Source: an uncultured Candidatus Peribacteria bacterium
Lineage (GTDB): Bacteria; Patescibacteriota; Gracilibacteria; Peribacterales; Peribacteraceae
DNA: 60,482 nucleotides
Assembly: GCA_964448615.1 (NCBI GenBank)
Contig: CAYUWH010000003.1
Coordinates: 1-60,482 of the forward strand
Reading direction: 5' to 3'
Both the position numbers and the translations under genes were made by a program. Positions 4,431 to 19,661 of the stretch are shown here, one piece after another. The notes beneath the pieces are model-generated. The model was not told the origin of the DNA and did no database searches. It was given only the letters and a program-made list of their open reading frames with translations. Position 1 is the stretch's first letter. The number at the start of each line of letters is the position of its first letter.

Positions 4431-5075
4431 ATGTTGCAAAGCCCAGCTCGACAGCCCCAATTCGTAGCTGATTGGTTTTCAGTCCATATTCCCTCTTGGG
4501 AACGGCATTTTGCTGTTTTTGCCGGAAAGCCAAATATCCATGCACTGGAGATAGGGAGCTGGGAAGGACGCAGTGCTTGCTGGCTTTTGCAGAATATTCT
4601 TACAGATCCCAGTTCGCGTATTACTTGTGTGGATGCGTTCCCGACGCAGAATGAATATCTGGATGAAATTTCAAAACGTTTCTGTCATCTGCCCGCCGAT
4701 TTTTGTGTTGAAGAATGTTTTGATGCCAACATTGAGGCGGTGGGCGGTGCAAAGAAAACAAGCAAGCGCAAAGGGGAATCATGTCGAGTTTTGCGGACGC
4801 TACCCTTCGATTCGTTTGATTTGATTTACATTGATGGCTCTCACATGGCGTCGAATGTTCTTACCGATGCCGTCCTTTCCTGGGACTTGCTGCATGTACA
4901 TGGTCTACTGGTATTCGATGATTACAATTGGTCCATTGATCGTAATCCCATTCATGCTCCTCGTGCGGCGATCGATGCTTTTCTCAGTGTGTTTGCGGAA
5001 CAGTATGCAGTGCTTGAGCATGGAGCGCAGGTCATTCTCCGCAAGTTGCCGAACCCATCACGGTATCTTCTCTAA
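4431..5075 (+). CDS. class I SAM-dependent methyltransferase (Methyltransf_24-like)
   Basis: Motifs seen: DWFSVHIPSW, the glycine-rich motif I HALEIGSWEGRS, and LIYIDGSH. The first ATG at 4431 was chosen; the track ORF opens at a TTG at 4422. Confidence 0.75.
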   Translation: MLQSPARQPQFVADWFSVHIPSWERHFAVFAGKPNIHALEIGSWEGRSACWLLQNILTDPSSRITCVDAFPTQNEYLDEISKRFCHLPADFCVEECFDANIEAVGGAKKTSKRKGESCRVLRTLPFDSFDLIYIDGSHMASNVLTDAVLSWDLLHVHGLLVFDDYNWSIDRNPIHAPRAAIDAFLSVFAEQYAVLEHGAQVILRKLPNPSRYLL

Positions 5076-5192
5076 AAACAGTGCGGAGCATGTCAACATC
5101 GTTTGACAAACTTGCTCGAACGGGCGTGGCATTCTTGTGAGGAAAAAACGTGAAGAGTATCCTGAGAACCTCTTCCCTTCCTTCCGTTTCGT

Positions 5193-5450
5193 ATGTTTTC
5201 AAAATCCAAAAACGGTCCGTGTCCCACCTGCAAAGTCACGGGTCTTGTTATGATGGTTGTGGGGTATCTCGTTCTTCTCTTGTCGCTGGTCGGTGTCGTC
5301 ATGGCGCATATCGGCACGGAGGATGTGCCTGTCGTCTTCGGCACAATGAGCGGATCCCTCTCACTCTTGGTGTTTGTGGCATCCCTGTTCTTCGTAAAGA
5401 AGATGGGGAGCTGCTGCCCCTGCCAGTGTGAGCTTCCGAAGAAAAAGTAA
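5193..5450 (+). CDS. small hypothetical membrane protein with Cys-rich C-terminus
   Basis: 85 aa. Two hydrophobic helices (LVMMVVGYLVLLLSLVGVVM, LSLLVFVASLFFV) and a CCPCQC tail. No family recognised. Confidence 0.4.
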   Translation: MFSKSKNGPCPTCKVTGLVMMVVGYLVLLLSLVGVVMAHIGTEDVPVVFGTMSGSLSLLVFVASLFFVKKMGSCCPCQCELPKKK

Positions 5451-5529
5451 GCGAATCACGGTTTTAGAAGAAGGGCCGTTTGACATTGAGCAGATGGCCC
5501 TTTGTTGTGTACACTGCTGCCCCAACCAA

Positions 5530-5620
<91 letters not shown>

Positions 5621-5644
5621 GAACCAGACCGGCAATCAAAACAA

Positions 5645-5670
5645 GAGTAATTCAGGAATTGCTCTTTTTT
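5645..5670 (+). terminator. intrinsic terminator after tRNA-Ser
   Basis: Stem GAGTAATT (5645-5652) pairs with AATTGCTC (5657-5664), loop CAGG, followed by T6 (5665-5670). Confidence 0.7.
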
Positions 5671-5746
5671 CATATAACAAGTGCCGGTCGGTTCATGGCG
5701 CGCCCTGTACCCGATCTGCCAAAGGCAGAGAGTGGTACAGGGCCAT

Positions 5747-5775
5747 TTGACATACCCACACCCTTCATCTTGAAT
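5747..5775 (+). promoter_or_regulatory. sigma70-like promoter of ncRNA unit 1
   Basis: TTGACA (5747-5752), 17-nt spacer, TTGAAT (5770-5775). The unit's first G (5782) lies 7 nt downstream. Confidence 0.7.
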
Positions 5776-5781
5776 CGCCCC

Positions 5782-6082
5782 GATCCAATTGCTTAGTTCT
5801 TTCACGAGAACTCACTCTGCGCTCTTGTAGTGCAGGGTTGACCTCCGATAAATACCATCCGGTGTCCGGATGGAGGAGGTATGGACGGTCGTGAGATCGT
5901 TCAGTCTGCCTGGCTCTTTGCACGGCTGCCTTGGTAGCCAGGGCCCGTCGCGTTGCTCCGTGCCGCAGGCCTAACCAGGCAGCCCTGCAACTTCTCGTTG
6001 CAAAGTTTTTTCCAAAACTTCGCAACGACAAGATTCCACGAATTGGATCATTCCGGGGAGATGCTTCTCCCCGGATTTTTTT
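5782..6082 (+). ncRNA. retron-like structured ncRNA, unit 1
   Basis: 5' GATCCAATT (5782-5790) is complementary to 3' AATTGGATC (6041-6049). Conserved scaffold to about 5908, unit-specific arm 5909-6035, CCACG at 6036-6040. Terminator CCGGGGAG/CTCCCCGG plus a T-run at 6053-6082. Confidence 0.75.
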
Positions 6083-6121
6083 AGTTCAACTAGTTGTTGG
6101 CGCATTCTCACGTACTGGTAT

Positions 6122-6150
6122 TTGACATATTCATGCAATCCGCATTCAAT
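6122..6150 (+). promoter_or_regulatory. sigma70-like promoter of ncRNA unit 2
   Basis: TTGACA (6122-6127), 17-nt spacer, TTCAAT (6145-6150). The unit starts at 6157. Confidence 0.7.
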
Positions 6151-6156
6151 ATCGCC

Positions 6157-6450
6157 GATCCAATTGCTTAGTTCTTTCACGAGAACTCACCCTGCACTCT
6201 TGTAGTGCAGGGCTGACCTTCGCCAAAGACCATCCGGCGTCCGGATGGAGGAGGTATGGACGGTCGTGAGACCGTTCAGTCTTGTTGGCATTCGGAAGGC
6301 ATGCGTTATGTCGTTCCGGCCCTTCGCTTCGCTCAGAGCCGCAACTTAATAACGCAGCCATGCCGACCAAATGCATAAAGAAAACTCGTTTTCTTTATGC
6401 ATTCGGATCCACGAATTGGATCACCCCGGGAGGGCTCGCTCTCCCGGATT
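6157..6450 (+). ncRNA. retron-like structured ncRNA, unit 2
   Basis: 5' GATCCAATT (6157-6165) pairs with AATTGGATC (6414-6422). Scaffold to about 6283, specific arm 6284-6408, CCACG at 6409-6413. GC hairpin CCGGGAG/CTCCCGG at 6426-6447 with only a weak T-run (ATTGT). Confidence 0.75.
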
Positions 6451-6496
6451 GTACGTGCCCAACCACTTGTTGTTGGCAGATTCCATTCTTCGATAT

Positions 6497-6525
6497 TTGA
6501 CATGTCATGATAATCCATCTTCAAT
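6497..6525 (+). promoter_or_regulatory. sigma70-like promoter of ncRNA unit 3
   Basis: TTGACA (6497-6502), 17-nt spacer, TTCAAT (6520-6525). The unit starts at 6532. Confidence 0.7.
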
Positions 6526-6531
6526 ACTCTA

Positions 6532-6818
6532 GATCCAATTGCTTAGTTCTTTCACGAGAACTCACCCTGTACCCATCGTGGTACGGGGTTGACCTTCGCC
6601 AAAGATCATCCGGCGTCCGGATGGAGGAGGTATGGATGACCGCGAGGTTATCCGGTCGGACTGGCTAGCAGGGCTTGTCGCACTTGAGGGTGCCCTCGCT
6701 TCGCTCGAGGCATACCCTCTTCGTACGACGACGCCCTGACAGGCACTGACAAAGCGTTGTCAGTGCCTGTGTACCACGAATTGGATCGCCCCGGGGGAGT
6801 TCTCTCTCCCGGATTTTT
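6532..6818 (+). ncRNA. retron-like structured ncRNA, unit 3
   Basis: 5' GATCCAATT (6532-6540) pairs with AATTGGATC (6779-6787). Scaffold to about 6659, specific arm 6660-6773, CCACG at 6774-6778. Terminator hairpin 6791-6812 plus T5 at 6814-6818, which overlaps the next -35. Confidence 0.75.
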
Positions 6819-6845
6819 GACAAGTACAAAAAATCATCTTTACTG
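6817..6845 (+). promoter_or_regulatory. sigma70-like promoter of ncRNA unit 4
   Basis: TTGACA (6817-6822), 17-nt spacer, TTACTG (6840-6845; a weaker -10). The unit starts at 6851. Confidence 0.55.
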
Positions 6846-6850
6846 CTCTA

Positions 6851-7143
6851 GATCCAATTGCTTAGTTCTTTCACGAGAACTCACCCTGTACCCATCGTGG
6901 TACGGGGTTGACCTTCGCCAAAGATCATCCGGCGTCCGGATGGAGGAGGTATGGATGACCGCGAGGTCTCCAGTCTGCTGTGCTTTGACCTTCGAGCGAC
7001 TACTTTGGGTTCAGCCATTCGCTTCGCTTATGGCTGCCCCGGCGTATCGCCCGAAGCTCACGGCGTCACAATCAATGCTACGCATTCATTGTGACCCAGA
7101 CCCACGAATTGGATCACCCCGGGAGGGCTCGCTCTCCCGGATT
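6851..7143 (+). ncRNA. retron-like structured ncRNA, unit 4
   Basis: 5' GATCCAATT (6851-6859) pairs with AATTGGATC (7107-7115). The first 117 nt are identical to unit 3. Specific arm 6978-7101, CCACG at 7102-7106. The 3' hairpin (7119-7140) is identical to that of unit 2. Confidence 0.75.
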
Positions 7144-7189
7144 GTACGTGCCCAACCACTTGTTGTTGGCAGATTCCATTCTTCGATAT

Positions 7190-7218
7190 TTGACATGTCA
7201 TGATAATCCATCTTCAAT
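7190..7218 (+). promoter_or_regulatory. sigma70-like promoter of ncRNA unit 5
   Basis: TTGACA (7190-7195), 17-nt spacer, TTCAAT (7213-7218). Identical to the unit 3 promoter. The unit starts at 7225. Confidence 0.7.
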
Positions 7219-7224
7219 ACTCTA

Positions 7225-7520
7225 GATCCAATTGCTTAGTTCCTTGGAACTCACTCCGCACACGCAAGTGCTGCGGGGCTGACCTCCGCTTCACAATCAT
7301 CCGGTGTCCGGATGGAGGAGGTATGGACAGTCGTGAGGCTGTCCGGTCTGGGTGGTTCTCGATCACTCAGGTTAATCTCGTTTCGGCCTGTCGCATTCGC
7401 TCCAAGCCGCAACTGAGCTAACATGAGTGACCGACCCTTTTTCCCTGAAATGGGATTTCAGCGAAAAAGGGATCCACGAATTGGATCTCCCCGGGGAGAG
7501 GCATCTCTCCGGATTTTTTT
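7225..7520 (+). ncRNA. retron-like structured ncRNA, unit 5
   Basis: 5' GATCCAATT (7225-7233) pairs with AATTGGATC (7479-7487). This is the most divergent scaffold, with compensatory stem changes. Specific arm 7351-7473, CCACG at 7474-7478. Terminator GGAGAG/CTCTCC plus T7 ends at 7520. Confidence 0.75.
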
Positions 7521-7552
7521 CGACTTTTCCAACGTTCTTCCGGCGACGCATT

Positions 7553-9358
7553 ATGAGTCTTAACAGTATGCCCAGCGAGGAAACCCTTGAGTATTGCTCG
7601 CAATTATTGCAACGGCCGTTTACGGCGCCGTGGGAAGCGAGCGGTGTCCTGCTCAGTATTCTCGAGCAGTTGCGCACACGGCCAGGGGCTCTGTATCGCA
7701 CGCAATATATTGAAAAAGGCAACGGCAAAATGCGCCGAATCGATGAGCCCAACAAAATTTTGAAATTCGTGCAGAAGCAAATTTCGTTGGTGCTGAATCA
7801 TGCATGGGTCGCGCCGGGCGTATGCGGCTTCGTGCTGAACAACAGCGCGCAACAAGGATTGCGCGGCATGATCGACACGATGTACGTGGGAACGGAAGAG
7901 CATCCCGCTCGCGGGCCCATCAAGGCGGTGTACCAAGAAGATATTGAAAACCAGTTCGGCTCTATCACGCGCGATCAAGTGGAAGAGGCGCTGCGCGAGC
8001 ATTTCTTCACGCGCATTTTGCACGATTGGGAGAAGGGGCCGAAACTCCCCAACTTGCAAGTCGGCAGAATCGCCGAAGTGATTGCCGAAGTGTGTTGCTA
8101 CGAAGGACATTTGCCGCAGGGTTCTCCCGCGAGCCCCGTCCTCTCCAACATCGTCTGCACGCGTTTCGATTTCGCGTTGAGACGTTTGCTCGGCAAGCAG
8201 GGAGTGTACGGACGCTATGCTGACGACATGGTGGTGCTCGCGTGCGACAAGCTCGATACGAAATTCCGCGGGAAATTCCGCAACATTCTCAATACGTGCG
8301 GATTCAACGTGAATCGTGAAAAAGGAGAATATGAGGAACACCGGCGAAGGAAGACTGAGGAAGAAAGTTCCGGCGATCCGCGCCAACGTTTTCGCATTTG
8401 GGGAATGGATCTCGTGGTTGATGACGATGCGCAGACAGCATGGTTCCGCCTGCCGAGGAACATGGAGCGCCAATGGGTGGAAGATATCTCCGCAATGCTG
8501 GAGGGTGCCGGCGATTTGCCTCGTGACTCAAAAGAATTTATGAGTGACACGCGCGTATTGGAGGTGCTCGGCAGGCTTGCTTATGCGTTCCAGGTAACAC
8601 GTTGGGGGCATCCCGATCACATCAAGGGGCGCGAATTTCCCGGCCGTTCCGACGAGAGACCGGAGATTACCGGCGCGCATGAATTCCTCCCGAAGGATTT
8701 GGCACGAATCTGGCGGGCGTTCCGCGCCGAATTCGGAGGCAGGTTGCCGCAACGTCACCGACGTTGGTTCCACGATACGGCGCCGCTCTATAGCGCCAAC
8801 AGCACGCGGGTTCCCGTTACCTCCGGGGAGTTTGAAGAACGATTGCACGAATTCGGCGTTGAGAGAGGCTTTGATGAAGCGACATTGATCGCGGAGTTGA
8901 ATCACTATCAACAGCATTTTCAAAGCGATTATCCGCTCGTGGATGCCGATGGCGTCCAGTACCGCGCTGCCGGACAGAGCAATGATTACCCCGATGAAGC
9001 ATTGGCGGAAGCGTCTGAACTCTTTGTCCAGCAGAGTCCGAGCGTGAGCGATACGGAGCGTCTTGAATTGCTGCGCAGAACGCTCGCGTGCTTCAGCGGA
9101 TTCGTTCGCTGTTTATTTGCCGGGCAATTGCAAGGATTCAGCATCAGCGAGCAGCACGACTCATTACTGCCGGTGAACGGCCAGCGCCCGTGGCAGCGCT
9201 TGCTGCAAGAGTGTCGTCGCGCGGGCATCTCCACGCCTGAGCTTGTGCGGTTGTTTGATGCAAGCACGTCTCGCACGCAGTACCGCATTCGTCCGAAAAC
9301 CCTCCCCAAAAAAGTGCATCGTGAACATCTGCACTTGTACGGTTTCGATAACGATTGA
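7553..9358 (+). CDS. reverse transcriptase (retron/UG-like, not assignable to a known class by eye) with long C-terminal extension
   Basis: RT motifs in order: KGNGKMRRIDEP (motif 1), YQEDIENQFGSI (motif A), LPQGSPASPVLSN (motif B, ~8111-8150), RYADDMVVL (motif C, ~8212-8235), GFNVNREKGE (motif D). About 280 aa follow with no recognisable domain. Start set at the first ATG after the unit-5 terminator; the track ORF opens at 7427 inside the ncRNA. Confidence 0.9.
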   Translation: MSLNSMPSEETLEYCSQLLQRPFTAPWEASGVLLSILEQLRTRPGALYRTQYIEKGNGKMRRIDEPNKILKFVQKQISLVLNHAWVAPGVCGFVLNNSAQQGLRGMIDTMYVGTEEHPARGPIKAVYQEDIENQFGSITRDQVEEALREHFFTRILHDWEKGPKLPNLQVGRIAEVIAEVCCYEGHLPQGSPASPVLSNIVCTRFDFALRRLLGKQGVYGRYADDMVVLACDKLDTKFRGKFRNILNTCGFNVNREKGEYEEHRRRKTEEESSGDPRQRFRIWGMDLVVDDDAQTAWFRLPRNMERQWVEDISAMLEGAGDLPRDSKEFMSDTRVLEVLGRLAYAFQVTRWGHPDHIKGREFPGRSDERPEITGAHEFLPKDLARIWRAFRAEFGGRLPQRHRRWFHDTAPLYSANSTRVPVTSGEFEERLHEFGVERGFDEATLIAELNHYQQHFQSDYPLVDADGVQYRAAGQSNDYPDEALAEASELFVQQSPSVSDTERLELLRRTLACFSGFVRCLFAGQLQGFSISEQHDSLLPVNGQRPWQRLLQECRRAGISTPELVRLFDASTSRTQYRIRPKTLPKKVHREHLHLYGFDND

Positions 9359-9385
9359 TCTTCTTCATTTTTTTCTCTTTCTCCC

Positions 9386-12300
9386 ATGTCCAAGAAAGCC
9401 TCTGTCGCCGCCGCTCCGACCGTCGTCACCGACGAGTTGTACGCATTGCTCGAGCGGGATCCCACTGCTGCCATCTTGCAGACGAGTCTTGCGGAAGATG
9501 CCGCGGCGCATCTCGACGATACGTCGGAAAAGCGCATGGCCGTCGAGCCGGAAATCGTGGGAATTCTTCTCGCAGGATTCCGTGCATCCGTGGAGCAATA
9601 CATATCCAGCGAACTCCTCGAGGCGCACCCAGATTTGCAGGATATGAAGGAGAGCATTCTGCAGGGGAGGCGAAAAGTGCGCGGCGACATCATGCGATTA
9701 CTGAGAGAGCACGGCGGGCATTTGCGCAGCGCTTCGCGGGAACAGAGTCGCTTCAATCATGAAGTGACGTACGAACCGGGTAAGGATGTGGAGCCGACAC
9801 TCGCGAACTTCCGGCATTTGCGCGGGTTGCACAAAGACATTGAAGCACGCCGCGATGAGATGGCTGCCACGCTCGGCGGAGCGCAGCGGTCGTTGCGCGC
9901 GAATATTCCGGGCATGGCGGCCTTCTCGCGCTTGATCGTGCAAACTGAAGGTGGTTCCGAGGAGCATCGTCTCAAGACATTGATGCGCCAAATGTGGGGT
10001 GACGAGCGCGTGCAGGCGGAGTGGGTGCGTGCGCAACACGTGGCCTATGCGCAGGCGGCCGAGCGCGGAGACAGAATCATCGAAGGTCCTTCGACGGTGG
10101 TATTGCTCAACCGCATTCATCGCGAAATCAACGTGAACAAAATGCGCGGCTCAACAGGTGTGGCGCTCGTTGGTCCTCCGGGCTGGGGAAAGACCGAAAT
10201 CTTGAAGCACTATTTCGCGGAAGTCGGCATCCACTTGGTCACGGCGGACATGTCGCGCATCAGCAATGCCGCCACGCTCATGGCGCGCCCGGCGTTGCAG
10301 GATGAATCGTTCCGGAGTCTTGATGATGTCATCGATGCGATTGAGACGATGACGCATCGCGACTTCCTCCGTTTCTATACGCAACATCCGGAGTTGTGTC
10401 AGCAGGCAGGCATTGATTGGGACCAGATCAAAAATCCGCGCGCAACGCAGCGTCTTGCCAATGCCCGGCAAGCACTGGCGGCGCCGCTTAAAGATGCGCG
10501 CGGGAACCGCATCGCCGAAGCATTGCAGACCCACGTTCGTCAGCGCGGCGTCGTCTTCGGCCTCCTTGCCAAAACCTTGCTGAGACCCAACAGCGCGTTC
10601 GGCTTCGAAGAATTCACGTACCTCGACATTGCCAACGCGCCGTTCGTCAATGGTCTCATGACGACCATTCCCGCAACGGATGAAGAAGCGGGCTTGCCTC
10701 CGGATGAACGCACGACTCCCGGCGATCTGAAGGGGTGGTTCCAGGAACCGATCAGCGGCATCTGGTTCCGCGTACCCAAGACCTTCTCGATCAACGGCAC
10801 GGCGAACGTGGGAGCGGCGTACCGCAACCAGGGAATTTCCGCGGCGTGGGAGAGCCGCTTCGGCGGAGGATTGATCACGATCCCGTTGCGTGATCAGCGC
10901 AAAAAAGAAACAGCGCCGATCGATGACGGCGTCGAATTCCAGGAAACGCCGGAAGGCAATCAATTCAAGGAGTATTTGGAGACCCTCGTCTGGCCGCGCC
11001 TCTCCGATTCTACGACAGGCCGTTTCGAATTGGATGACGACACCGCGTACCGTCTCGACTTCCTCGTCCGCCGCGTGTTGCCGCATATCATCTCCACGCT
11101 GCGCCGTCGCAATCGCAAAATGCCGAACCTCTCGATTCGCACGCTGCAGGATCTTTGCAATCGTTTGCTTCCTCGATCCCAAGACGAAGACTTGAAGGGC
11201 GTGAATTTGGATACCGCGATTTGGGAATCCATCGTTGAACCGCTGGCTGCCGATATCGATCAATACGGGGAAACAGTCGAAGTGGTGCTGGCATGGTTGA
11301 TGGGCTCCGGCGTGCTGCGCAACGTCGGTACGCGCGTGAAGGGGTTGTTGTCGGGTCCGGTGCATCAGCGTTTGCAAAAAACGATCGATCAGCTTCGTAC
11401 TTCCGGCTCGGGGAATACCGAGCAGGCGGCGGAAACATTCGAGCAATTCCAAGATACGCAGTACACCAGGGCCGAAGGAGTGCATGCGGGTTCTTGCCAT
11501 GCGTGCGGCGTGACGGCATGTCCGGTTCACGGCAAAGACACCGAGGAATATCTCCATCAACTCGCGCAACTGGAGCGCGCAGCGGCGATGGGTATGACGC
11601 CGGAGATCGCACGCGCCATCAGCAAGCGTCAGGCTGAATTGTTACGCGCTCAGGAATGGGGAATGCTGCTCGAAGTGTATTTGGAAACGAACGGTGCAAA
11701 GCAGTTGGAGAAAATTCCTGCGGGGCTGGAAGAATATTTGCAGAGCTTGGTGACGGCATGTACCGAAGATCCTGAACAGGCTCCCGAGCACATTCAAATT
11801 TTGCAGCGAGCTTCCGCCAATGCGTTGCCCGTCAAAGTTGATCAGCAGTGGATGTGCACGATGATGGATTACTGGGGTAAGGTGCTCGCAAATACTGAAT
11901 TCGTAGATGTTCACGAGCGTCTTAAGCAGCTGCAAGATGTACCGGGAGCTTCTGCGGAGCAGGACCGTGTGCGCATTGGAAAAGATATGCAACGTATTGT
12001 GCGCGACCGTATCGCGCCGGCCTTGCGTGTCATGAGGACGTTGCAAGAATGGTCCAAGCAAACGCGTGATCTCAACATGGATGAATGTATGGTGTTGACC
12101 GATATGGTCGATTACCTGCCTGCCCAGTCGTTGATGGTGGCTCGCGAGTTGACGGCGGAGGAAGAGCATAAAGATGTGGTGAAAACCGCGGTGGACCGTT
12201 CAGTGAAAAGCCGCAAGAAAGAGCTGCAAGCGGAATTTAAAGCGATGCGCGACAATCTCGGTGGCGGTGCCAATCAAGAGGCGGCGCAAGGGCGCGTCAT

Positions 12301-12616
12301 TGCCCGTCCGCCTGCCGAAATCGCACAGATGCCCCAACTCGTTCAGCAGTATGGCGCCGTGCAGCGTCTGTTGCGCGAAGCGGGGGCACTCGCGAAATTG
12401 CATGCTATTCCCACGGAAGAGCTCACCGAACTCGTATCACTTGCGTCCGGCTTGCTGCGTGAAGGATTCGGGGGCGAAAAAGAATCCGACGTGTGCATTC
12501 CTTTTGTGCGCTGCATGCGCACGATCGCGGATGTTCGCGGCATGAGCGTCAATGATGTGCTGCAATATTTCTTCGAACCCAAAGTGGTGCCGTATCCTCC
12601 CATTCGTCAATTCTAA
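9386..12616 (+). CDS. large P-loop NTPase, AAA+ (MoxR/AAA_5-like) core with long helical extensions
   Basis: 1076 aa. Walker A GVALVGPPGWGKTEILK (~10160-10200). Candidate Walker B AFGFEEF about 130 aa downstream. The rest is not recognisable. Starts 27 nt after the RT stop. Confidence 0.6.
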   Translation: MSKKASVAAAPTVVTDELYALLERDPTAAILQTSLAEDAAAHLDDTSEKRMAVEPEIVGILLAGFRASVEQYISSELLEAHPDLQDMKESILQGRRKVRGDIMRLLREHGGHLRSASREQSRFNHEVTYEPGKDVEPTLANFRHLRGLHKDIEARRDEMAATLGGAQRSLRANIPGMAAFSRLIVQTEGGSEEHRLKTLMRQMWGDERVQAEWVRAQHVAYAQAAERGDRIIEGPSTVVLLNRIHREINVNKMRGSTGVALVGPPGWGKTEILKHYFAEVGIHLVTADMSRISNAATLMARPALQDESFRSLDDVIDAIETMTHRDFLRFYTQHPELCQQAGIDWDQIKNPRATQRLANARQALAAPLKDARGNRIAEALQTHVRQRGVVFGLLAKTLLRPNSAFGFEEFTYLDIANAPFVNGLMTTIPATDEEAGLPPDERTTPGDLKGWFQEPISGIWFRVPKTFSINGTANVGAAYRNQGISAAWESRFGGGLITIPLRDQRKKETAPIDDGVEFQETPEGNQFKEYLETLVWPRLSDSTTGRFELDDDTAYRLDFLVRRVLPHIISTLRRRNRKMPNLSIRTLQDLCNRLLPRSQDEDLKGVNLDTAIWESIVEPLAADIDQYGETVEVVLAWLMGSGVLRNVGTRVKGLLSGPVHQRLQKTIDQLRTSGSGNTEQAAETFEQFQDTQYTRAEGVHAGSCHACGVTACPVHGKDTEEYLHQLAQLERAAAMGMTPEIARAISKRQAELLRAQEWGMLLEVYLETNGAKQLEKIPAGLEEYLQSLVTACTEDPEQAPEHIQILQRASANALPVKVDQQWMCTMMDYWGKVLANTEFVDVHERLKQLQDVPGASAEQDRVRIGKDMQRIVRDRIAPALRVMRTLQEWSKQTRDLNMDECMVLTDMVDYLPAQSLMVARELTAEEEHKDVVKTAVDRSVKSRKKELQAEFKAMRDNLGGGANQEAAQGRVIARPPAEIAQMPQLVQQYGAVQRLLREAGALAKLHAIPTEELTELVSLASGLLREGFGGEKESDVCIPFVRCMRTIADVRGMSVNDVLQYFFEPKVVPYPPIRQF

Positions 12617-12619
12617 ACG

Positions 12620-14572
12620 ATGTCCGAATCCTCTCCTGAACGGCCGCGCAATCCAACCCGTCTCCCGGAGATTCTCAGTGATCTGCATATCGAATTGTTG
12701 CGCCCGATTTGCGAAGGGGTGGACAGTGCGGAATTGCGCCCGTCCGATCCCAATACGGAGAGCAGCGGCTATGCCACGATCATCTCGCAGCCGGACAAAG
12801 ATGCACCGCAGCGGCTCGTCATCTATTACCATCCCGTGACGGTGCACACGATCGGCGAGGCGCGCGTGTTCGCGATCATGCTGCATGAACTGGGGCATCA
12901 TCATCCTGAAGTTGAGCGGTTCCAGCATTCGTGTTTGCGCTTTGCCAAGGCGGCGGAAGGAGAGCAATTTTTACCTCCGAACCTGGCTGACAAAGCGAAG
13001 CTCGTGCATACGTGTTTCAATATCCTCGCAGACGTATTGCTTGAAACCATTTGCTGCCGCAATCTGCCTGCGGAAAAAATGATGCGCAGCGCGCTTTCCT
13101 ATAATCGTGCGCATCTCTTTTTTGAGCACATGGATCCGGACGGGACGCGTTTGCAGGCATACGAAGAGTCGGATCGTCAGCTGTTTCCGTGGTCGGAAGA
13201 GGAATTTCGCAAGATGGAAGCGTGGTCCCAGCTTATGCAGGCATCGCTCGTCGCGCCATTTTTTCAATGGCCGGACGAGGCGTGGATGGCTCCGTCGCTT
13301 GCCAAGCGCATGCCGGAAGTGCGGCAGCTGTTCAGTGAGCTCCGCAGCCCCGCGACCCGCGGCGAGATGAAAGGACATTTGTTCCTCAAATACGTCGGTA
13401 TCGTCGGAGATTTGATTCGAGAGGAGATGCACAAGCTTTCCGCCGCCGGCGGCGATACGACCCAAAAATCGGGCGAACTCAGCGATCGTGTCGGGGATAC
13501 TTGTGATCGCGCGGATCGCATCACCAAGCCCGGAGAGGCGGAAGGACAGCCTTCAACGGAACAGAAAGAGCCTCCGCCCAGAGATCTGACTGAAGATATC
13601 GGTGCACAGCGCAAACGCATGGATGACTTGATGCAAAGCCAGAATGCGGAAGAGGAAGAATATATCAAACAGAAAGCGGCCGAGCTTGGCGTTAACGTAA
13701 AAACGTATCGTCTCTATCTCGATATTTGTAAAGAGTGGGAGGATGTCATCAAAGAGTTCACCAGGGCGCTCTCGCAATTCGTGTTGCGTGATTTTCAAGT
13801 GGAACCGCGTACGGGATTTTCCGAGGGCTACATGATCACGCCGGGCCGGGAATTTGAAACGTACATGCGTATCCGAATGGGGGAGGAAGACCCCGACACG
13901 ATGGAGGGATACCAGACGTTCCGCAATCCGCGCGTGTTGCAGCTTTACCCGTGCATCGACACGTCCGGAAGCATGAAGCACCGTATCGAAGAAACGTTGG
14001 CGTATTACACCGTTATCGCGAAGTCCTGCTTTAATATTCAACAGGAATTGAAGCACAACGCATCGAACTACAACATTCCTTTCAGTTGGCCGCCCCCCCT
14101 TTCGCTCGAAGTCGTGACGTTCTCCGACACGCCCGAAGTGGTCGTGCCGTTTCAAGAAACGATGGACGAGAAGACGCTTCTCAAAGGCTTCGAGAGCATC
14201 ATTCATGAGACGAGCGTGGGGCAAGGCACCAACGACAGCGGAGCGCTGAAATTCGTGTATAAAGAAATGGAAAAGAACGATGTGAACGCGCTCAAAATTC
14301 TCATGATGCTGACGGACGGCGTGGGGAATCACGACCTTCTGGAGCCGATCATCCGGCAAATCGAAGAGGATCCGGGGATTTATTTCCTTGTGTCCGGAGT
14401 GGGCTACGGGTCGGGTGCGGTGCAGAAAGCGTATCAAGATCGCTTCCGACCCACGCAGGATTTTCATGTGTTTGCCATGGAGCATGAAACGGTGAAAGAG
14501 GCGCTGCTCGAGACTCTCGGGCTCATCAAGCAATGGACTGCGGAATTCTACGCCCGCAATACACCGAGCTGA
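12620..14572 (+). CDS. zincin-like (HExxH) + von Willebrand factor A domain protein
   Basis: 650 aa. N-terminal IMLHELGHHH (HExxH, ~12884-12898). C-terminal vWA with MIDAS-like DTSGSM (~13958-13975) and MMLTDGVGN. Starts 3 nt after the NTPase stop. The layout resembles the metallopeptidase-N + VWA-like proteins that partner MoxR ATPases. Confidence 0.65.
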   Translation: MSESSPERPRNPTRLPEILSDLHIELLRPICEGVDSAELRPSDPNTESSGYATIISQPDKDAPQRLVIYYHPVTVHTIGEARVFAIMLHELGHHHPEVERFQHSCLRFAKAAEGEQFLPPNLADKAKLVHTCFNILADVLLETICCRNLPAEKMMRSALSYNRAHLFFEHMDPDGTRLQAYEESDRQLFPWSEEEFRKMEAWSQLMQASLVAPFFQWPDEAWMAPSLAKRMPEVRQLFSELRSPATRGEMKGHLFLKYVGIVGDLIREEMHKLSAAGGDTTQKSGELSDRVGDTCDRADRITKPGEAEGQPSTEQKEPPPRDLTEDIGAQRKRMDDLMQSQNAEEEEYIKQKAAELGVNVKTYRLYLDICKEWEDVIKEFTRALSQFVLRDFQVEPRTGFSEGYMITPGREFETYMRIRMGEEDPDTMEGYQTFRNPRVLQLYPCIDTSGSMKHRIEETLAYYTVIAKSCFNIQQELKHNASNYNIPFSWPPPLSLEVVTFSDTPEVVVPFQETMDEKTLLKGFESIIHETSVGQGTNDSGALKFVYKEMEKNDVNALKILMMLTDGVGNHDLLEPIIRQIEEDPGIYFLVSGVGYGSGAVQKAYQDRFRPTQDFHVFAMEHETVKEALLETLGLIKQWTAEFYARNTPS

Positions 14573-18386: not shown

Positions 18387-19610
18387 TTAAATCTTCAGTT
18401 TTTTCTGCACTCCATTCAACACTTCTCCCAACTTCCGAATCTCCTCCTCCGTCGTATACATCCCAAGCGACACGCGCACCGATGCAGGAATGCCGAGTGT
18501 TTGATGCAGAATCTGTGCACAGTGTTGTCCGGCGCGCACGCAAATATTCTGGGATCCGAGTAGCTCGGCGATATCGTGAGGATGCGCCCCTTTCATGGTG
18601 AAGCTGATGCATCCGCGGCGATCCTCAGGGTCTATGTTTCCAAGGATGGTAATGCCGGGAAGCGAGGCAAGTGTTTCATGAAGAACACGCATCAGTTGTT
18701 GTTCATGTGCGAGGCGATCATGCCACGAGTAGTGCGCGGCCCATTCCAGCGCCGCTGCCAGGCCGATGGCTCCGGAGATCGGTTGCGTACCTGCTTCGAA
18801 GCGCTGTGGGGGATCGGCTGGTGCAAATCCATTGATAGTTACATCGCGGATCATGCCGCCTCCGCCCAAAAACGGCGGCATCGCTTCGAGTAATTGACGT
18901 TTGGCATAGAGCACGCCGATGCCGTCTGGCCCGTAGAGTTTGTGTCCGGAGAATGCGAGAAATTCACAGTCGAGATGCGCCACGTTCATTTCGTCGTGTG
19001 CTGCGAGTTGAGACGCATCAATAAGAACGGCTGCTCCTCGGTCATGCGCCTGCATGATCAAATGTTCCAATGGCTGACGGACGCCGATCACATTGCTCAA
19101 GCCCGTGAGCGCGCAAAGTTTGACGGGATGTTCGTGTAGCAATTGTTGTAGATGCGCTTGGGAAATCGTCCCATCGTGGTCCATGCGGATCCATGCGATG
19201 CGTACGTTTTTTTCCTCCGCAAGTTGCAGCCACGGAATGACGTTGCTGTGGTGTTCGAGTTCTGAGAGCAGGACCACGTCGCCTTCGTGCAGCATGCATC
19301 GCCCCCATGCATGGGCGACGAGATTGATCGCTTCGGTGGCGTTTTTCGTAAAGACAATCTCATCCGTGTGCTTCGCATGCAGAAACCTTGCAACGGTTTT
19401 TCGCGCCGCTTCGAAACGCTCCGTCGCTTTTTCCGCGAGCGGGTGCATGGAGCGGTGCGCTCCTCCGACGGATGTTTCGTAAAATTCCCGCATCGCCTCA
19501 AGAACAGCGTCCGGCTTCTGGCTGGTTGCGGCGCTGTCGAGATACGCCAGTTCCGGCTCGCGCCTGAAGAGGGGAAATTGGCCTCGGATGGAGGAGAGAG
19601 GGGTGGTCAT
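18387..19610 (-). CDS. sufS: cysteine desulfurase SufS (class V aminotransferase)
   Basis: 407 aa. FPLFRREPELAYLDSAATSQKP at the N-terminus, FSGHKLYGPDGIGVLY (PLP lysine), RAGQHCAQ (catalytic Cys loop). Confidence 0.9.
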   Translation of the reverse strand: MTTPLSSIRGQFPLFRREPELAYLDSAATSQKPDAVLEAMREFYETSVGGAHRSMHPLAEKATERFEAARKTVARFLHAKHTDEIVFTKNATEAINLVAHAWGRCMLHEGDVVLLSELEHHSNVIPWLQLAEEKNVRIAWIRMDHDGTISQAHLQQLLHEHPVKLCALTGLSNVIGVRQPLEHLIMQAHDRGAAVLIDASQLAAHDEMNVAHLDCEFLAFSGHKLYGPDGIGVLYAKRQLLEAMPPFLGGGGMIRDVTINGFAPADPPQRFEAGTQPISGAIGLAAALEWAAHYSWHDRLAHEQQLMRVLHETLASLPGITILGNIDPEDRRGCISFTMKGAHPHDIAELLGSQNICVRAGQHCAQILHQTLGIPASVRVSLGMYTTEEEIRKLGEVLNGVQKKLKI

Positions 19611-19661
19611 GCGGAGGAATCAGCTTACCCCAACTACGTGCTGCTGGTACACTATGGCATC

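What the first reader, a model, noticed from the sequence alone, without database searches (positions are those of the whole stretch)
5782..7520. Compensatory base changes between the five copies support a conserved multi-hairpin RNA scaffold
Aligning the units by eye shows stems that are kept while their sequence changes.
- Hairpin 1: GTTCT-ttcacg-AGAAC in units 1-4 versus GTTCC-tt-GGAAC in unit 5.
- Hairpin 2: CTGCGC/GTGCAG (unit 1), CCCTGCAC/GTGCAGGG (unit 2), CCCTGTACC/GGTACGGGG (units 3 and 4), CCGCA/TGCGG (unit 5).
- Hairpin 3: CATCCGG-ygt-CCGGATG is invariant.
- The flanking ACCTYC pairs with GGAGGT.
- Hairpin 4: GACGGT/ACCGTT (unit 2), GACGGT/ATCGTT (unit 1), GGATGACC/GGTTATCC (unit 3), GGA(T)GACC/GGTCTCC (unit 4), GGACAG/CTGTCC (unit 5).

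Double substitutions that keep pairing are the classical signature of selection on RNA structure rather than on coding or DNA repeats. Together with the promoters and terminators, this argues that these are expressed structured RNAs.
Basis: seen in the sequence. Interest (0 to 1): 0.8.

Follow-up and report, generated by a model that had tools for sequence, protein, structure and literature searches.

The report
Tandem array of retron-like RNA genes
Five separately promoted genes for one folded RNA lie next to a retron-like reverse transcriptase; every copy keeps the same folded handle but carries a different hairpin cassette, which looks like a natural multi-template retron, a layout I found no report of for retrons.

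Summary
Window 5782-7487 (+) holds five units of 256-268 nt. All five give the same fold: a 9-bp closing helix (GATCCAATT/AATTGGATC), four 5' hairpins, then two long hairpins with unrelated sequence. Within the window, 12 of 60 pairs show changes on both sides, against 5.8±1.6 in shuffles.

They have the anatomy of retron msr-msd RNAs. The junction is the one seen in retron Ec86: a1-G-C … A-C-G-a2. They lie directly upstream of an operon for a retron-like reverse transcriptase (RT), a divergent P-loop ATPase and an HExxH+vWA protein.

Related operons occur in Peribacteria, Peregrinibacteria, Gracilibacteria and other Patescibacteria MAGs. Four of these loci carry arrays of 2 to at least 6 such units. 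The conserved handle covaries across 21 units; the cassettes are all different.

Most likely each unit templates a different msDNA made by one RT. This is inferred, not shown.

The RT lies outside all 13 described retron types. It lacks NAXXH and has I/V-W-G in place of VTG.

The closest concept is the UG27 variable ncRNA array (preprint, September 2026). That system has a different RT motif, different RNA motifs, different accessory proteins and a phage context.

Verdict: new variant of a known kind.

The parts
5747..5752 (+). -35-like TTGACA of unit 1. The equivalent boxes are at 6122-6127 (U2), 6497-6502 (U3), 6817-6822 (U4) and 7190-7195 (U5).
   Evidence: The box lies a fixed 28-29 nt before the first base of a1 in all five units. 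It lies 27-30 nt before a1 in 9 further units of L004, L006, L008 and L009. The -10 is non-consensus (TCAATA, TGAATC, TTACTG), so the strict scan listed none.
5782..6049 (+). Unit 1 (268 nt). a1 5782-5790; invariant GCT 5791-5793; conserved handle (H1, H2, P3/H3) to 5881; H4 5882-5903; variable two-hairpin cassette about 5904-6037; ACG 6038-6040; a2 6041-6049.
   Evidence: MFE fold -122 kcal/mol, z = -7.6. Alignments A1 and A3.
6157..6422 (+). Unit 2 (266 nt). Handle 6157-6256; H4 6257-6278; variable cassette about 6279-6410; a2 6414-6422.
6532..6787 (+). Unit 3 (256 nt). Handle 6532-6632; H4 6633-6654; variable cassette about 6655-6775; a2 6779-6787.
6851..7115 (+). Unit 4 (265 nt). Handle 6851-6951, 97% identical to that of unit 3; H4 6952-6972; variable cassette about 6973-7103; a2 7107-7115.
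7225..7487 (+). Unit 5 (263 nt). Handle 7225-7323; H4 7324-7345; variable cassette about 7346-7475; a2 7479-7487.
6052..6082 (+). Intrinsic-terminator-like hairpin plus T-run after unit 1. Equivalents with a T-run are at 6791-6818 (U3) and 7491-7520 (U5). GC hairpins without a T-run follow U2 (about 6424-6447) and U4 (about 7117-7140).
   Evidence: Terminator scan: 14 sites found against 2.4±1.4 expected. The + strand sites 6052-6075, 6791-6812 and 7491-7512 are listed. Downstream sequences are shown.
7553..9358 (+). Retron-like reverse transcriptase, 601 aa from the ATG at 7553. The database protein P0001 starts at 7568. RT domain is aa 31-267, followed by a family-specific C-terminal region of about 330 aa.
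   Evidence: Pfam RVT_1. The best PADLOC, NCBIfam and PDB matches are all retron RTs, but weak. YADD is invariant.
9386..12616 (+). 1076-aa divergent P-loop (AAA-like) ATPase. Walker A GPPGWGKT at aa 263-270; invariant CxxCxxxxCPxHG at aa 704-716.
   Evidence: Weak Pfam AAA match, E = 9e-4. Invariant columns in alignment A7. Conserved directly after the RT gene in L001, L003, L006, L008 and L009.
12620..14572 (+). 650-aa protein with an N-terminal HE[LF]GHH (zincin-like) motif at aa 89-94 and a C-terminal vWA domain with the MIDAS DxSxS motif at aa 447-451.
   Evidence: Pfam VWA_2 and VWA. Invariant H89, E90, G92, H93, H94, D447, S449 and S451 in six orthologues (A6).
5530..5619 (+). tRNA-Ser(GGA) directly upstream of the array. 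Context only, not part of the system.
   Evidence: Rfam and ARAGORN.

Best explanation
The five units are separate genes for retron-type msr-msd non-coding RNAs. They serve the retron-like reverse transcriptase encoded just downstream.

Proposed mechanism:
1. Each unit is transcribed from its own promoter, starting at or near a1, and ends at its own hairpin terminator.
2. Its ends pair (a1/a2).
3. The conserved 5' handle (H1, H2, P3/H3; H4 in this genome) is the RT-recognition part, the msr.
4. The conserved G just 3' of a1 is the priming (branching) nucleotide.
5. The RT copies the variable two-hairpin cassette, the msd, starting at the conserved ACG just 5' of a2.

One RT would thus make five different msDNAs that share one RNA handle. 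These RNA-DNA-RT particles would work with the ATPase and the HExxH-vWA protein, probably as an anti-phage sensor and effector set, with the diverse DNA hairpins widening what is sensed.

Shown here: the anatomy, the covariation, the linkage to the RT operon in six loci, and the multi-copy state in five loci.

Inferred: transcription, reverse transcription, the 2'-5' branch, the role of the accessory proteins, and the defence function.
For: 1. Linkage. The operon of RT, a protein of about 1040 aa and a protein of about 650 aa is conserved in every relative found. Units of the same design lie beside it, on the same strand, in L004 (1 unit), L005 (at least 6), L006 (4), L009 (2) and L008 (4, downstream of the operon).

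2. Retron anatomy in all 21 units:
- A terminal helix a1/a2, in which 7 of 9 pairs covary and 93.7% of cells pair.
- Invariant UUGCU after a1 and CGAA at a2.
- Two to four handle hairpins.
- Two long hairpins in the variable part.

3. The junction a1-G-C … A-C-G-a2 is the same as in the retron Ec86 locus read from E. coli C: TGCGCACCCTTA|GC … GAC|G|TAAGGGTGCGCA. From established knowledge, in Ec86 that G is the branching G and the templated DNA starts at that C.

4. The RT's best matches in three libraries are retron RTs:
- PADLOC: RT_IX, E = 6e-32, and the next 24 hits are all retron types.
- NCBIfam: retron St85, E = 7e-30, against Drt2 at 6e-12.
- PDB: Ec86 RT, E = 7e-24 with the family profile.
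YADD is invariant.

5. Covariation:
- Within the window: 12 double-changed pairs against 5.8±1.6 in shuffles.
- Across loci: 34 of 38 pairs double-changed, score 0.713 against 0.223 in shuffles.

6. Strand. G·U outnumbers A·C by 23 to 2. Promoter and terminator orientation agree with the + strand.

7. Cassettes share no similarity with each other, while their flanks are 97-98% identical.

8. An independent ENA assembly gives the identical five-unit array.
Against: - No transcript or msDNA data exist for this organism. Reverse transcription is inferred only.
- The RT is not a member of any described retron type. It scores at most 109 bits, whereas a true type I-C RT scores 767 bits on its own model and 159-313 bits on the other retron-type models among its 25 best hits.
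- The RT lacks the NAXXH motif and has I/V-W-G instead of VTG. A different priming chemistry is therefore possible.
- Canonical retrons have one ncRNA, co-transcribed with the RT (PMC7736814). Here each RNA has its own promoter and terminator.
- UG27 shows that a non-retron RT can use an ncRNA array without a described branch.
- In A5 the handle helices were taken from per-sequence MFE folds, so they pair by construction. Only the shuffles and the positional consistency carry information.
- No covariance-model or R-scape test could be completed.
Confidence: 0.65

Rival explanations
1. UG27-like mode. The array templates short cDNA hairpins, but by a non-retron route: no 2'-5' branch, and only one central hairpin of each unit is copied. 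The accessory proteins would be needed for synthesis rather than acting as effectors.
For: The one experimentally studied natural ncRNA array, UG27, works this way. It makes cDNAs of 50-100 nt from the central hairpin, and all three proteins are needed. The RT here lacks NAXXH and VTG proper. The system also has three proteins plus an array.
Against: The UG27 motif AUCN7UANAG is absent from the units: 5 window hits, none in the array, 3.8 expected by chance. The catalytic box is YADD, not YSDD. The units have the a1/a2 helix and the Ec86-type G-C/A-C-G junction. The RT scores better against retron models than against Drt2 or Drt3.
Confidence: 0.15
2. The RNAs act as RNAs and are never reverse transcribed. 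For example, they could be antitoxin or scaffold RNAs that hold the ATPase-vWA pair inactive, or decoys. On this reading the RT has another template or is an RNA-binding subunit.
For: Nothing here shows cDNA. Each unit is a self-contained gene with its own terminator. The handle is strongly structured.
Against: The RT keeps an invariant YADD and all core RT blocks. The end-pairing with a conserved G, and ACG beside a2, is the specific geometry of retron priming. Structure-preserving but sequence-free variation of a 90-150-nt cassette is what is seen for msd stems (PMC7736814).
Confidence: 0.12
3. These are DNA-level repeats with no RNA role: a miniature inverted-repeat element, a REP-like array, recombination sites or a CRISPR-like array.
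For: The units are flanked by 9-bp inverted repeats. The array has constant and variable segments, and mosaic identity suggests recombination. Both strands fold equally well, z = -7.6 and -7.4.
Against: G·U pairs are tolerated and A·C pairs are not, 23 to 2. Promoter and terminator are placed at each unit's ends. The units always lie on the same strand as the RT operon, in six loci. No other copies occur in the 60-kb window. The 'spacers' are hairpins with no match in phages or in the window. The accessory proteins give no hit in the PADLOC defence models.
Confidence: 0.04
4. A diversity-generating retroelement: the cassettes are template repeats that rewrite a variable region in a target gene.
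For: An RT lies next to non-coding repeats. vWA-MoxR systems are sometimes linked to DGRs (PMC7159879).
Against: No cassette has a match elsewhere in the window; the best hits are 12-nt chance matches with E about 0.35. The RT's best hits are retron RTs, not DGR RTs. The cassettes are self-complementary hairpins.
Confidence: 0.02

Closest known systems
Canonical retrons (for example Ec86/Eco1; the 13 types of Mestre et al. 2020, PMC7736814)
   Same: An RT beside a structured ncRNA whose ends pair (a1/a2). A conserved G lies right after a1 and ACG right before a2, exactly as in Ec86. Short conserved hairpins (msr) are followed by one or two long hairpins of variable sequence (msd). Accessory effector genes sit in the same operon. 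The RT's nearest relatives by HMM and in the PDB are retron RTs.
   Different: There are 2 to at least 6 ncRNA genes per locus instead of one. Each has its own promoter and terminator instead of being co-transcribed with the RT. In one locus the array lies downstream of the operon. The RT scores at most 109 bits on any retron-type model, whereas true members score hundreds. It has no NAXXH, has I/V-W-G in place of VTG, carries an HKWEKGP insertion and has a C-terminal extension of about 330 aa. The accessory proteins (a 1076-aa ATPase and an HExxH-vWA protein) match no PADLOC model. I found no retron paper that mentions vWA.
UG27 reverse-transcriptase systems with variable ncRNA arrays (bioRxiv 10.64898/2026.09.22.753630; Mestre et al. 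2022, PMC9226505)
   Same: An RT plus two accessory proteins plus an array of structurally conserved, sequence-diverse ncRNA units. Unit number varies between loci. The array's position relative to the genes varies. The variable hairpins show no complementarity to phage or host.
   Different: UG27 is a class 2 UG RT with YSDD; this RT has YADD and its best hits are retron RTs. UG27 units are about 135-167 nt with AUCN7UANAG and UUYA motifs and a pseudoknot; these units are 150-270 nt with a1/a2, UUGCU and ACGAA, and the UG27 motif is absent. UG27 accessory proteins have no recognisable domains; here there are a P-loop ATPase and an HExxH-vWA protein. UG27 sits in prophages of Bacteroidota and Bacillota; this family sits in chromosomes of Patescibacteria and has no relative in IMG/VR.
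Engineered retron arrays ('multitrons', PMC10370050)
   Same: Several msr-msd or msd units in tandem, served by one RT, each templating a different DNA.
   Different: Those are synthetic, built from Eco1 for multiplex editing. The paper's text does not use 'naturally', 'in nature' or 'native', so it describes no natural array.
MoxR-type AAA+ ATPase and vWA couples in conflict systems (Kaur et al. 2020, PMC7159879)
   Same: An NTPase gene followed by a gene for a vWA protein with an intact MIDAS motif, in a likely conflict context.
   Different: The ATPase here is 1076 aa and matches AAA models only around the P-loop, E = 9e-4. It is not shown to be MoxR-like. In that paper the RT link is to DGRs, not to retron-like RTs.

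Membership tests
Retron (RT + msr-msd ncRNA) | The ncRNA ends are inverted repeats (a1/a2) that hybridise | tested here: met
   A 9-bp helix in all five window units. It is 6-9 bp in the other 16 units. Seven of 9 pairs covary and 93.7% of cells pair.
Retron (RT + msr-msd ncRNA) | A conserved branching G at the 3' end of a1 | tested here: met
   G10 is invariant in 21 of 21 units, within invariant UUGCU. It is in the same position as the G in Ec86. Whether it really forms a branch cannot be tested here.
Retron (RT + msr-msd ncRNA) | The msr has one to three hairpins; the msd has a single or double long hairpin with a variable stem (PMC7736814) | tested here: met
   The handle has 2 hairpins in L008, 3 in the other relatives' loci and 4 in the window. 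Most variable parts fold into two long hairpins; 3 of the 21 give one or three.
Retron (RT + msr-msd ncRNA) | NAXXH motif in RT region X (H most conserved) | tested here: not met
   The family has SAxxGLRxM there. Ec86's NNATPH aligns to a gap or non-matching stretch.
Retron (RT + msr-msd ncRNA) | VTG triplet in RT7 (G most conserved) | tested here: inconclusive
   Ec86 KVTGLV aligns to kiWGvev. W283 and G284 are invariant: G is kept and T is replaced by W.
Retron (RT + msr-msd ncRNA) | The RT belongs to the retron/retron-like clade (one of types I-XIII) | tested here: not met
   The best PADLOC score is 109 bits, a partial match to RT_IX. NCBIfam retron_St85 scores 104 bits against a cut-off of 235. 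A genuine type I-C RT scores 767 bits on its own model and 159-313 bits on the other retron-type models among its 25 best hits. This RT is nearest to retrons but outside the described types.
Retron (RT + msr-msd ncRNA) | Production of msDNA linked 2'-5' to the RNA | not testable with these tools
   Needs nucleic-acid biochemistry.
UG27 variable ncRNA array system | An array of structurally conserved, sequence-diverse ncRNA units beside the RT | tested here: met
UG27 variable ncRNA array system | Unit motifs AUCNNNNNNNUANAG and UUYA bracketing the central hairpin | tested here: not met
   No AUCN7UANAG match inside 5782-7520. There are five matches elsewhere in the window, against 3.8 expected. 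The UUYA motif was not searched.
UG27 variable ncRNA array system | UG27-group RT (class 2 UG; active site YSDD) | tested here: not met
   YADD is invariant. The 25 best PADLOC hits are all retron RTs. Drt2 and Drt3a score far lower than retron models. No UG27 profile or reference sequence was at hand for a direct score.
UG27 variable ncRNA array system | Phage or prophage location; accessory sORF and bORF without known domains | tested here: not met
   The locus is chromosomal, between tRNA-Ser with pheT and housekeeping genes. Only one distant hit in IMG/VR (25% identity over the RT core, E = 3e-8) and no close relative. The accessory proteins carry a P-loop and HExxH+vWA.
Diversity-generating retroelement | A template repeat with a near-identical variable repeat in a target gene | tested here: not met
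   The cassettes have no match elsewhere in the 60-kb window.
Any Rfam family | Match at the gathering score | tested here: not met
   Only two tRNAs reach the gathering score in the window. A lax scan of the array gives only chance hits, with E of 0.76 or higher.

The most novel reading that the evidence does not exclude
The array is a modular, heritable repertoire, in effect a small library of DNA-hairpin 'receptors' written by one RT. Each cassette would be tuned to a different phage-encoded trigger. Whole cassettes would be swapped in and out between near-identical constant flanks; the sharp switch from 97-98% identity to unalignable sequence points to cassette replacement rather than point mutation.

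This would be a retron-lineage counterpart of the UG27 arrays, arisen independently in Patescibacteria and wired to a new ATPase-metalloprotease-vWA effector.
Probability: 0.2. Interest if true: 0.9.

Novelty: new variant of a known kind. Interest (0 to 1): 0.72.

Why it matters
- Retrons are understood as one RT, one ncRNA and one msDNA. A natural lineage in which one RT serves several independently transcribed templates with free-varying cassettes would change that picture.
- Together with UG27, it would suggest that ncRNA arrays are a recurrent solution in RT-based systems.
- It would offer a natural blueprint for multiplex retron editing: a compact shared handle, exchangeable cassettes of 90-150 nt, and a promoter and terminator for each unit.
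- It would add a new effector pair (ATPase plus HExxH-vWA) to RT-linked systems.
- It would add a candidate immune system to the Candidate Phyla Radiation.
- The family is small: 14 full-length clusters among 1.84 billion representatives. It breaks assemblies at the array, which may be why I found no description of it.

Tried and rejected
- **Rfam.** Gathering and lax scans found nothing for the array.
- **Tandem Repeats Finder.** No rows, because the units are too divergent in the middle.
- **Covariance model R1.** I built it from the five window units but entered helix H2 two columns out of register. It found only the window units, and I did not use it further.
- **Second covariance model.** I prepared N-padded real sequences for it, but MAFFT re-aligned them (A9), so the structure string no longer fitted. 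I abandoned it. As a result there is no CM-based or R-scape-type test, only counts on a manual alignment.
- **Plain MAFFT of the 21 'mini-units'.** It misaligned H1 and H2, and RNAalifold recovered only a1/a2 and P3. Q-INS-i is not installed.
- **AlphaFold2.** The models of the RT (mean pLDDT 51) and of the ATPase (mean pLDDT 40) were too poor, so I ran no fold searches.
- **Profile searches of the ATPase and the vWA protein against the PDB.** They gave only P-loop and integrin I-domain level hits.
- **More distant RT relatives (L010, L033, L011).** These show no arrays.
- **Cassettes as spacers or targets.** No match in 50,697 phage records, in the window or among the cassettes themselves.
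- **UG27 membership.** Rejected on the motif, the catalytic box, the accessory proteins and the genomic context.
- **DGR and DNA-repeat readings.** Rejected; see the rival explanations.
- **A human-gut phage contig hit by the RT (H9).** It turned out to be an ordinary type I-C retron. I used it only as a score calibrator.
Full report
**What is there**

Window 5740-7530 holds five head-to-tail units on the + strand. Repeat families lie 319-376 nt apart.

Each unit runs from GATCCAATT (a1) to AATTGGATC (a2): 5782-6049, 6157-6422, 6532-6787, 6851-7115 and 7225-7487.

Each unit is preceded by a TTGACA box 28-29 nt before a1. Each is followed by a GC-rich hairpin. In U1, U3 and U5 this hairpin carries a T-run. 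The terminator scan finds 14 sites against 2.4±1.4 expected, including 6052-6075, 6791-6812 and 7491-7512. The strict promoter scan lists nothing, because the -10 boxes are non-consensus.

The array sits between tRNA-Ser(GGA) at 5530-5619 and an ORF that starts at 7553.

**Check of the observation**

Minimum-free-energy folds of the five units, made independently, give one architecture:
- a 9-bp closing helix a1/a2;
- H1 and H2;
- an outer helix ACCUYC/GGAGGU that encloses H3 (CAUCCGG-YGU-CCGGAUG);
- H4;
- a long hairpin A, whose apex (TCGCTTCGCT-like) is conserved in this genome;
- a second long hairpin B.

RNAalifold returns the 5' part and the closing helix as the consensus. It predicts 65 pairs, 16 of them changed on both sides.

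On a 60-pair structure:
- 97.3% of cells pair.
- 12 pairs show changes on both sides, against 5.8±1.6 in 500 shuffles; none of the shuffles reaches the observed value.
- Only 29-47% of cells pair when the partners are slid by 1-3 columns.

U1 folds with z = -7.6. The reverse strand folds almost as well, z = -7.4, as expected for hairpins. The strand is therefore fixed by other evidence: G·U pairs outnumber A·C by 23 to 2, the promoter and terminator point the same way, and the neighbouring operon is on the same strand.

An independent ENA assembly is identical over 4568-12358, so the array is not an assembly artefact.

**What it belongs to**

The ORF at 7553-9358 is a reverse transcriptase (Pfam RVT_1).
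- The 25 best PADLOC hits are all retron RTs; the best is RT_IX, E = 6e-32, 109 bits.
- NCBIfam ranks the retron St85 and Ec67 families first, at E = 7e-30 and 2e-25. Group II intron RT scores 1e-13 and Drt2 6e-12.
- With a profile of the family, the best solved structure is retron Ec86 RT, E = 7e-24.

Two more genes follow. The first encodes a 1076-aa protein with a Walker A motif (GPPGWGKT) and an invariant CxxCxxxxCPxHG. The second encodes a 650-aa protein with an invariant HE[LF]GHH and a vWA domain with an intact MIDAS motif. Neither matches any PADLOC model.

**Relatives**

Full-length RT relatives are rare:
- five proteins by word search of 5.8 billion clusters;
- 14 full-length clusters among 1.84 billion representatives.

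Every relative whose contig reaches downstream of the RT has the same genes after it: all three genes where the contig is long enough, and the RT with the ATPase gene where it is shorter.

Those with names are MAGs of Peribacteria, Peregrinibacteria, Gracilibacteria or 'Patescibacteria group'. The SufS encoded in the window is closest, at 52-56% identity, to Peregrinibacteria and Peribacteria proteins. The window probably comes from that lineage too. This is an inference.

**The array is a family trait**

Units of the same design lie next to the operon, on the same strand:

| Locus | Units | Position |
|---|---|---|
| L005 | at least 6 (a scaffold gap interrupts one) | upstream |
| L006 | 4 | upstream |
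| L009 | 2 | upstream |
| L004 | 1 clear | upstream |
| L008 = L031 | 4 | downstream |

Contigs L001, L002, L003 and L053 end 46-270 nt upstream of the RT. That is what collapsed repeats would produce.

All 21 units share these features:
- a1 ending in UU;
- an invariant GCU after a1;
- H1;
- H2 (absent in L008);
- a CCUCC…GGAGG helix enclosing a triloop hairpin (loop GWU; YGU in the window);
- a variable stretch of 40-150 nt, which in most units folds into two hairpins;
- an invariant CGAA that runs into a2.

Most units are also followed by a terminator-like hairpin.

I laid out a manual structural alignment with N in place of gaps, and MAFFT kept it column for column (A5). On it:
- 34 of 38 pairs show changes on both sides.
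- The covariation score is 0.713, against 0.223±0.015 in shuffles.
- In the a1/a2 helix, which was defined by position only, 7 of 9 pairs covary.

Caveat: the handle helices in A5 were read from per-sequence folds, so their near-100% pairing is built in. The information lies in three things: the same elements occur in the same order at the same distance from the invariant motifs; their sequences are unrelated between loci; and the shuffle and slide controls fail.

**Why retron-like**

Mestre et al. 2020 (PMC7736814) give these as the retron ncRNA traits: terminal inverted repeats that pair, a conserved branching G, one to three msr hairpins, and a single or double long msd hairpin of variable sequence. 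All the sequence-level traits are met.

I also read the Ec86 locus from E. coli C. There a1 is followed by G-C, and a2 is preceded by A-C-G. This family has exactly the same junction (UU|GCU … ACG|AA). From established knowledge of Ec86, that G carries the 2'-5' branch and the C of ACG is the first templated base.

**Why not a member of a known retron type**

- The RT scores at most 109 bits on any retron-type model.
- A genuine type I-C retron RT, picked up by chance in a gut phage contig, scores 767 bits on its own model and 159-313 bits on the other retron-type models among its 25 best hits.
- NAXXH is absent.
- VTG is replaced by I/V-W-G, with the G kept.
- There is a family-specific HKWEKGP insertion and a C-terminal region of about 330 aa.

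**The variable cassettes**

- Cassettes share no similarity within or between arrays.
- They have no match in 50,697 phage records.
- They have no match elsewhere in the window.
- Their flanks are almost identical: the U3 and U4 handles are 97% identical over 131 nt; the U2 and U4 a2-terminator-promoter stretches are 98% identical over 91 nt; the U3 and U5 promoters are 97% identical over 59 nt.

The switch from near-identity to unalignable sequence is abrupt. This suggests replacement of whole cassettes, or homogenisation of the constant parts, rather than gradual divergence.

**Mechanism proposed**

Each unit is transcribed on its own and closes through a1/a2. The RT binds the shared handle and primes at G10. 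It then copies the cassette from ACG towards the handle. The cell would therefore hold several msDNAs that differ only in their DNA hairpins.

By analogy with characterised retrons, these particles would keep the ATPase and the HExxH-vWA protein in check until a phage factor disturbs them. The diversity of hairpins would widen the range of triggers.

Everything from transcription onward is inference.

**Prior art**

- I found no paper that links retrons with vWA proteins, with Patescibacteria or with natural ncRNA arrays.
- Mestre 2020 has no mention of tandem or multiple copies.
- Engineered 'multitrons' exist (PMC10370050).
- A preprint of September 2026 (10.64898/2026.09.22.753630) describes variable ncRNA arrays in UG27 RT systems of gut prophages and shows that they template short cDNA hairpins of unknown role. 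This is the closest concept.

The present family differs from UG27 in several ways:
- RT lineage, and the catalytic box (YADD against YSDD).
- RNA motifs: AUCN7UANAG is absent.
- Accessory proteins.
- Genomic setting: the locus is chromosomal and has no close relative in IMG/VR.

**Limits**

- No expression or cDNA data.
- No covariance-model or R-scape test. One model was mis-specified and a second could not be built.
- The AlphaFold models were unusable.
- No direct UG27 reference was available for scoring.

**Verdict**

The feature is a tandem array of retron-like template RNA genes belonging to a rare RT-ATPase-vWA system of Patescibacteria. It is a new variant of a known kind. Confidence is about 0.65 in the template/msDNA mechanism, and higher (about 0.9) that these are RT-partner structured RNAs.

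Noticed in passing
window 5701-5743: The hairpin GCCCTGTACC-N21-GGTACAGGGC lies directly upstream of unit 1's promoter. Its stem is the H2 stem of units 3 and 4 (CCCTGTACC/GGTACGGGG). It may be the remnant of a sixth unit.
   Followed up: no
window 5619-5698: Right after tRNA-Ser, the 17-nt inverted repeat CATGAACCAGACCGGCA / TGCCGGTCGGTTCATG encloses a terminator-like hairpin with a T-run (about 5642-5672). It could be the tRNA terminator plus an integration scar.
   Followed up: no
window 6404-6494 vs 7099-7187; 6523-6653 vs 6842-6972; 6495-6553 vs 7188-7246: Mosaic near-identity (97-98%) of the constant segments between different pairs of units, with abrupt loss of similarity at the cassette borders. 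This points to recombination or cassette exchange within the array.
   Followed up: partly
L008 17020-18013 (= L031): In this Patescibacteria MAG the four-unit array lies downstream of the three-gene operon instead of upstream, and its units lack hairpin H2.
   Followed up: partly
L006 9606-9756: The fourth unit starts directly at the end of the third unit's a2. It has no promoter of its own, a different first hairpin and only one short variable hairpin. It may be a degenerate or co-transcribed unit.
   Followed up: no
window 9386-12616 (aa 704-716): The ATPase family has an invariant Cys/His cluster, CxxCxxxxCPxHG, which looks like a zinc-binding knuckle, far from the P-loop. No known domain matches it.
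   Followed up: partly
window 7488-7552: No promoter-like box is visible between unit 5's terminator and the RT start codon, whereas L005, L006 and L009 have a TTGACA-type box there. In this genome the operon may depend on read-through from the array.
   Followed up: no
L001, L002, L003, L053 (5' ends): Contigs that carry the RT gene end 46-270 nt upstream of it. This is consistent with short-read assemblies breaking in the repeated units, so copy numbers in public MAGs are probably underestimates. L005 has an N-run inside its array at 9040-9138.
   Followed up: partly
L055 2769-4496 (MT836041.1, human gut 'Bacteriophage sp.' contig): This contig encodes a full-length type I-C retron RT-Toprim protein (767 bits on the PADLOC model).
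   Followed up: partly
window 19287-22529: A 1080-aa ORF with no NCBIfam match. It lies partly overlapping the opposite-strand SufS gene and before a long polysaccharide-biosynthesis gene cluster.
   Followed up: no
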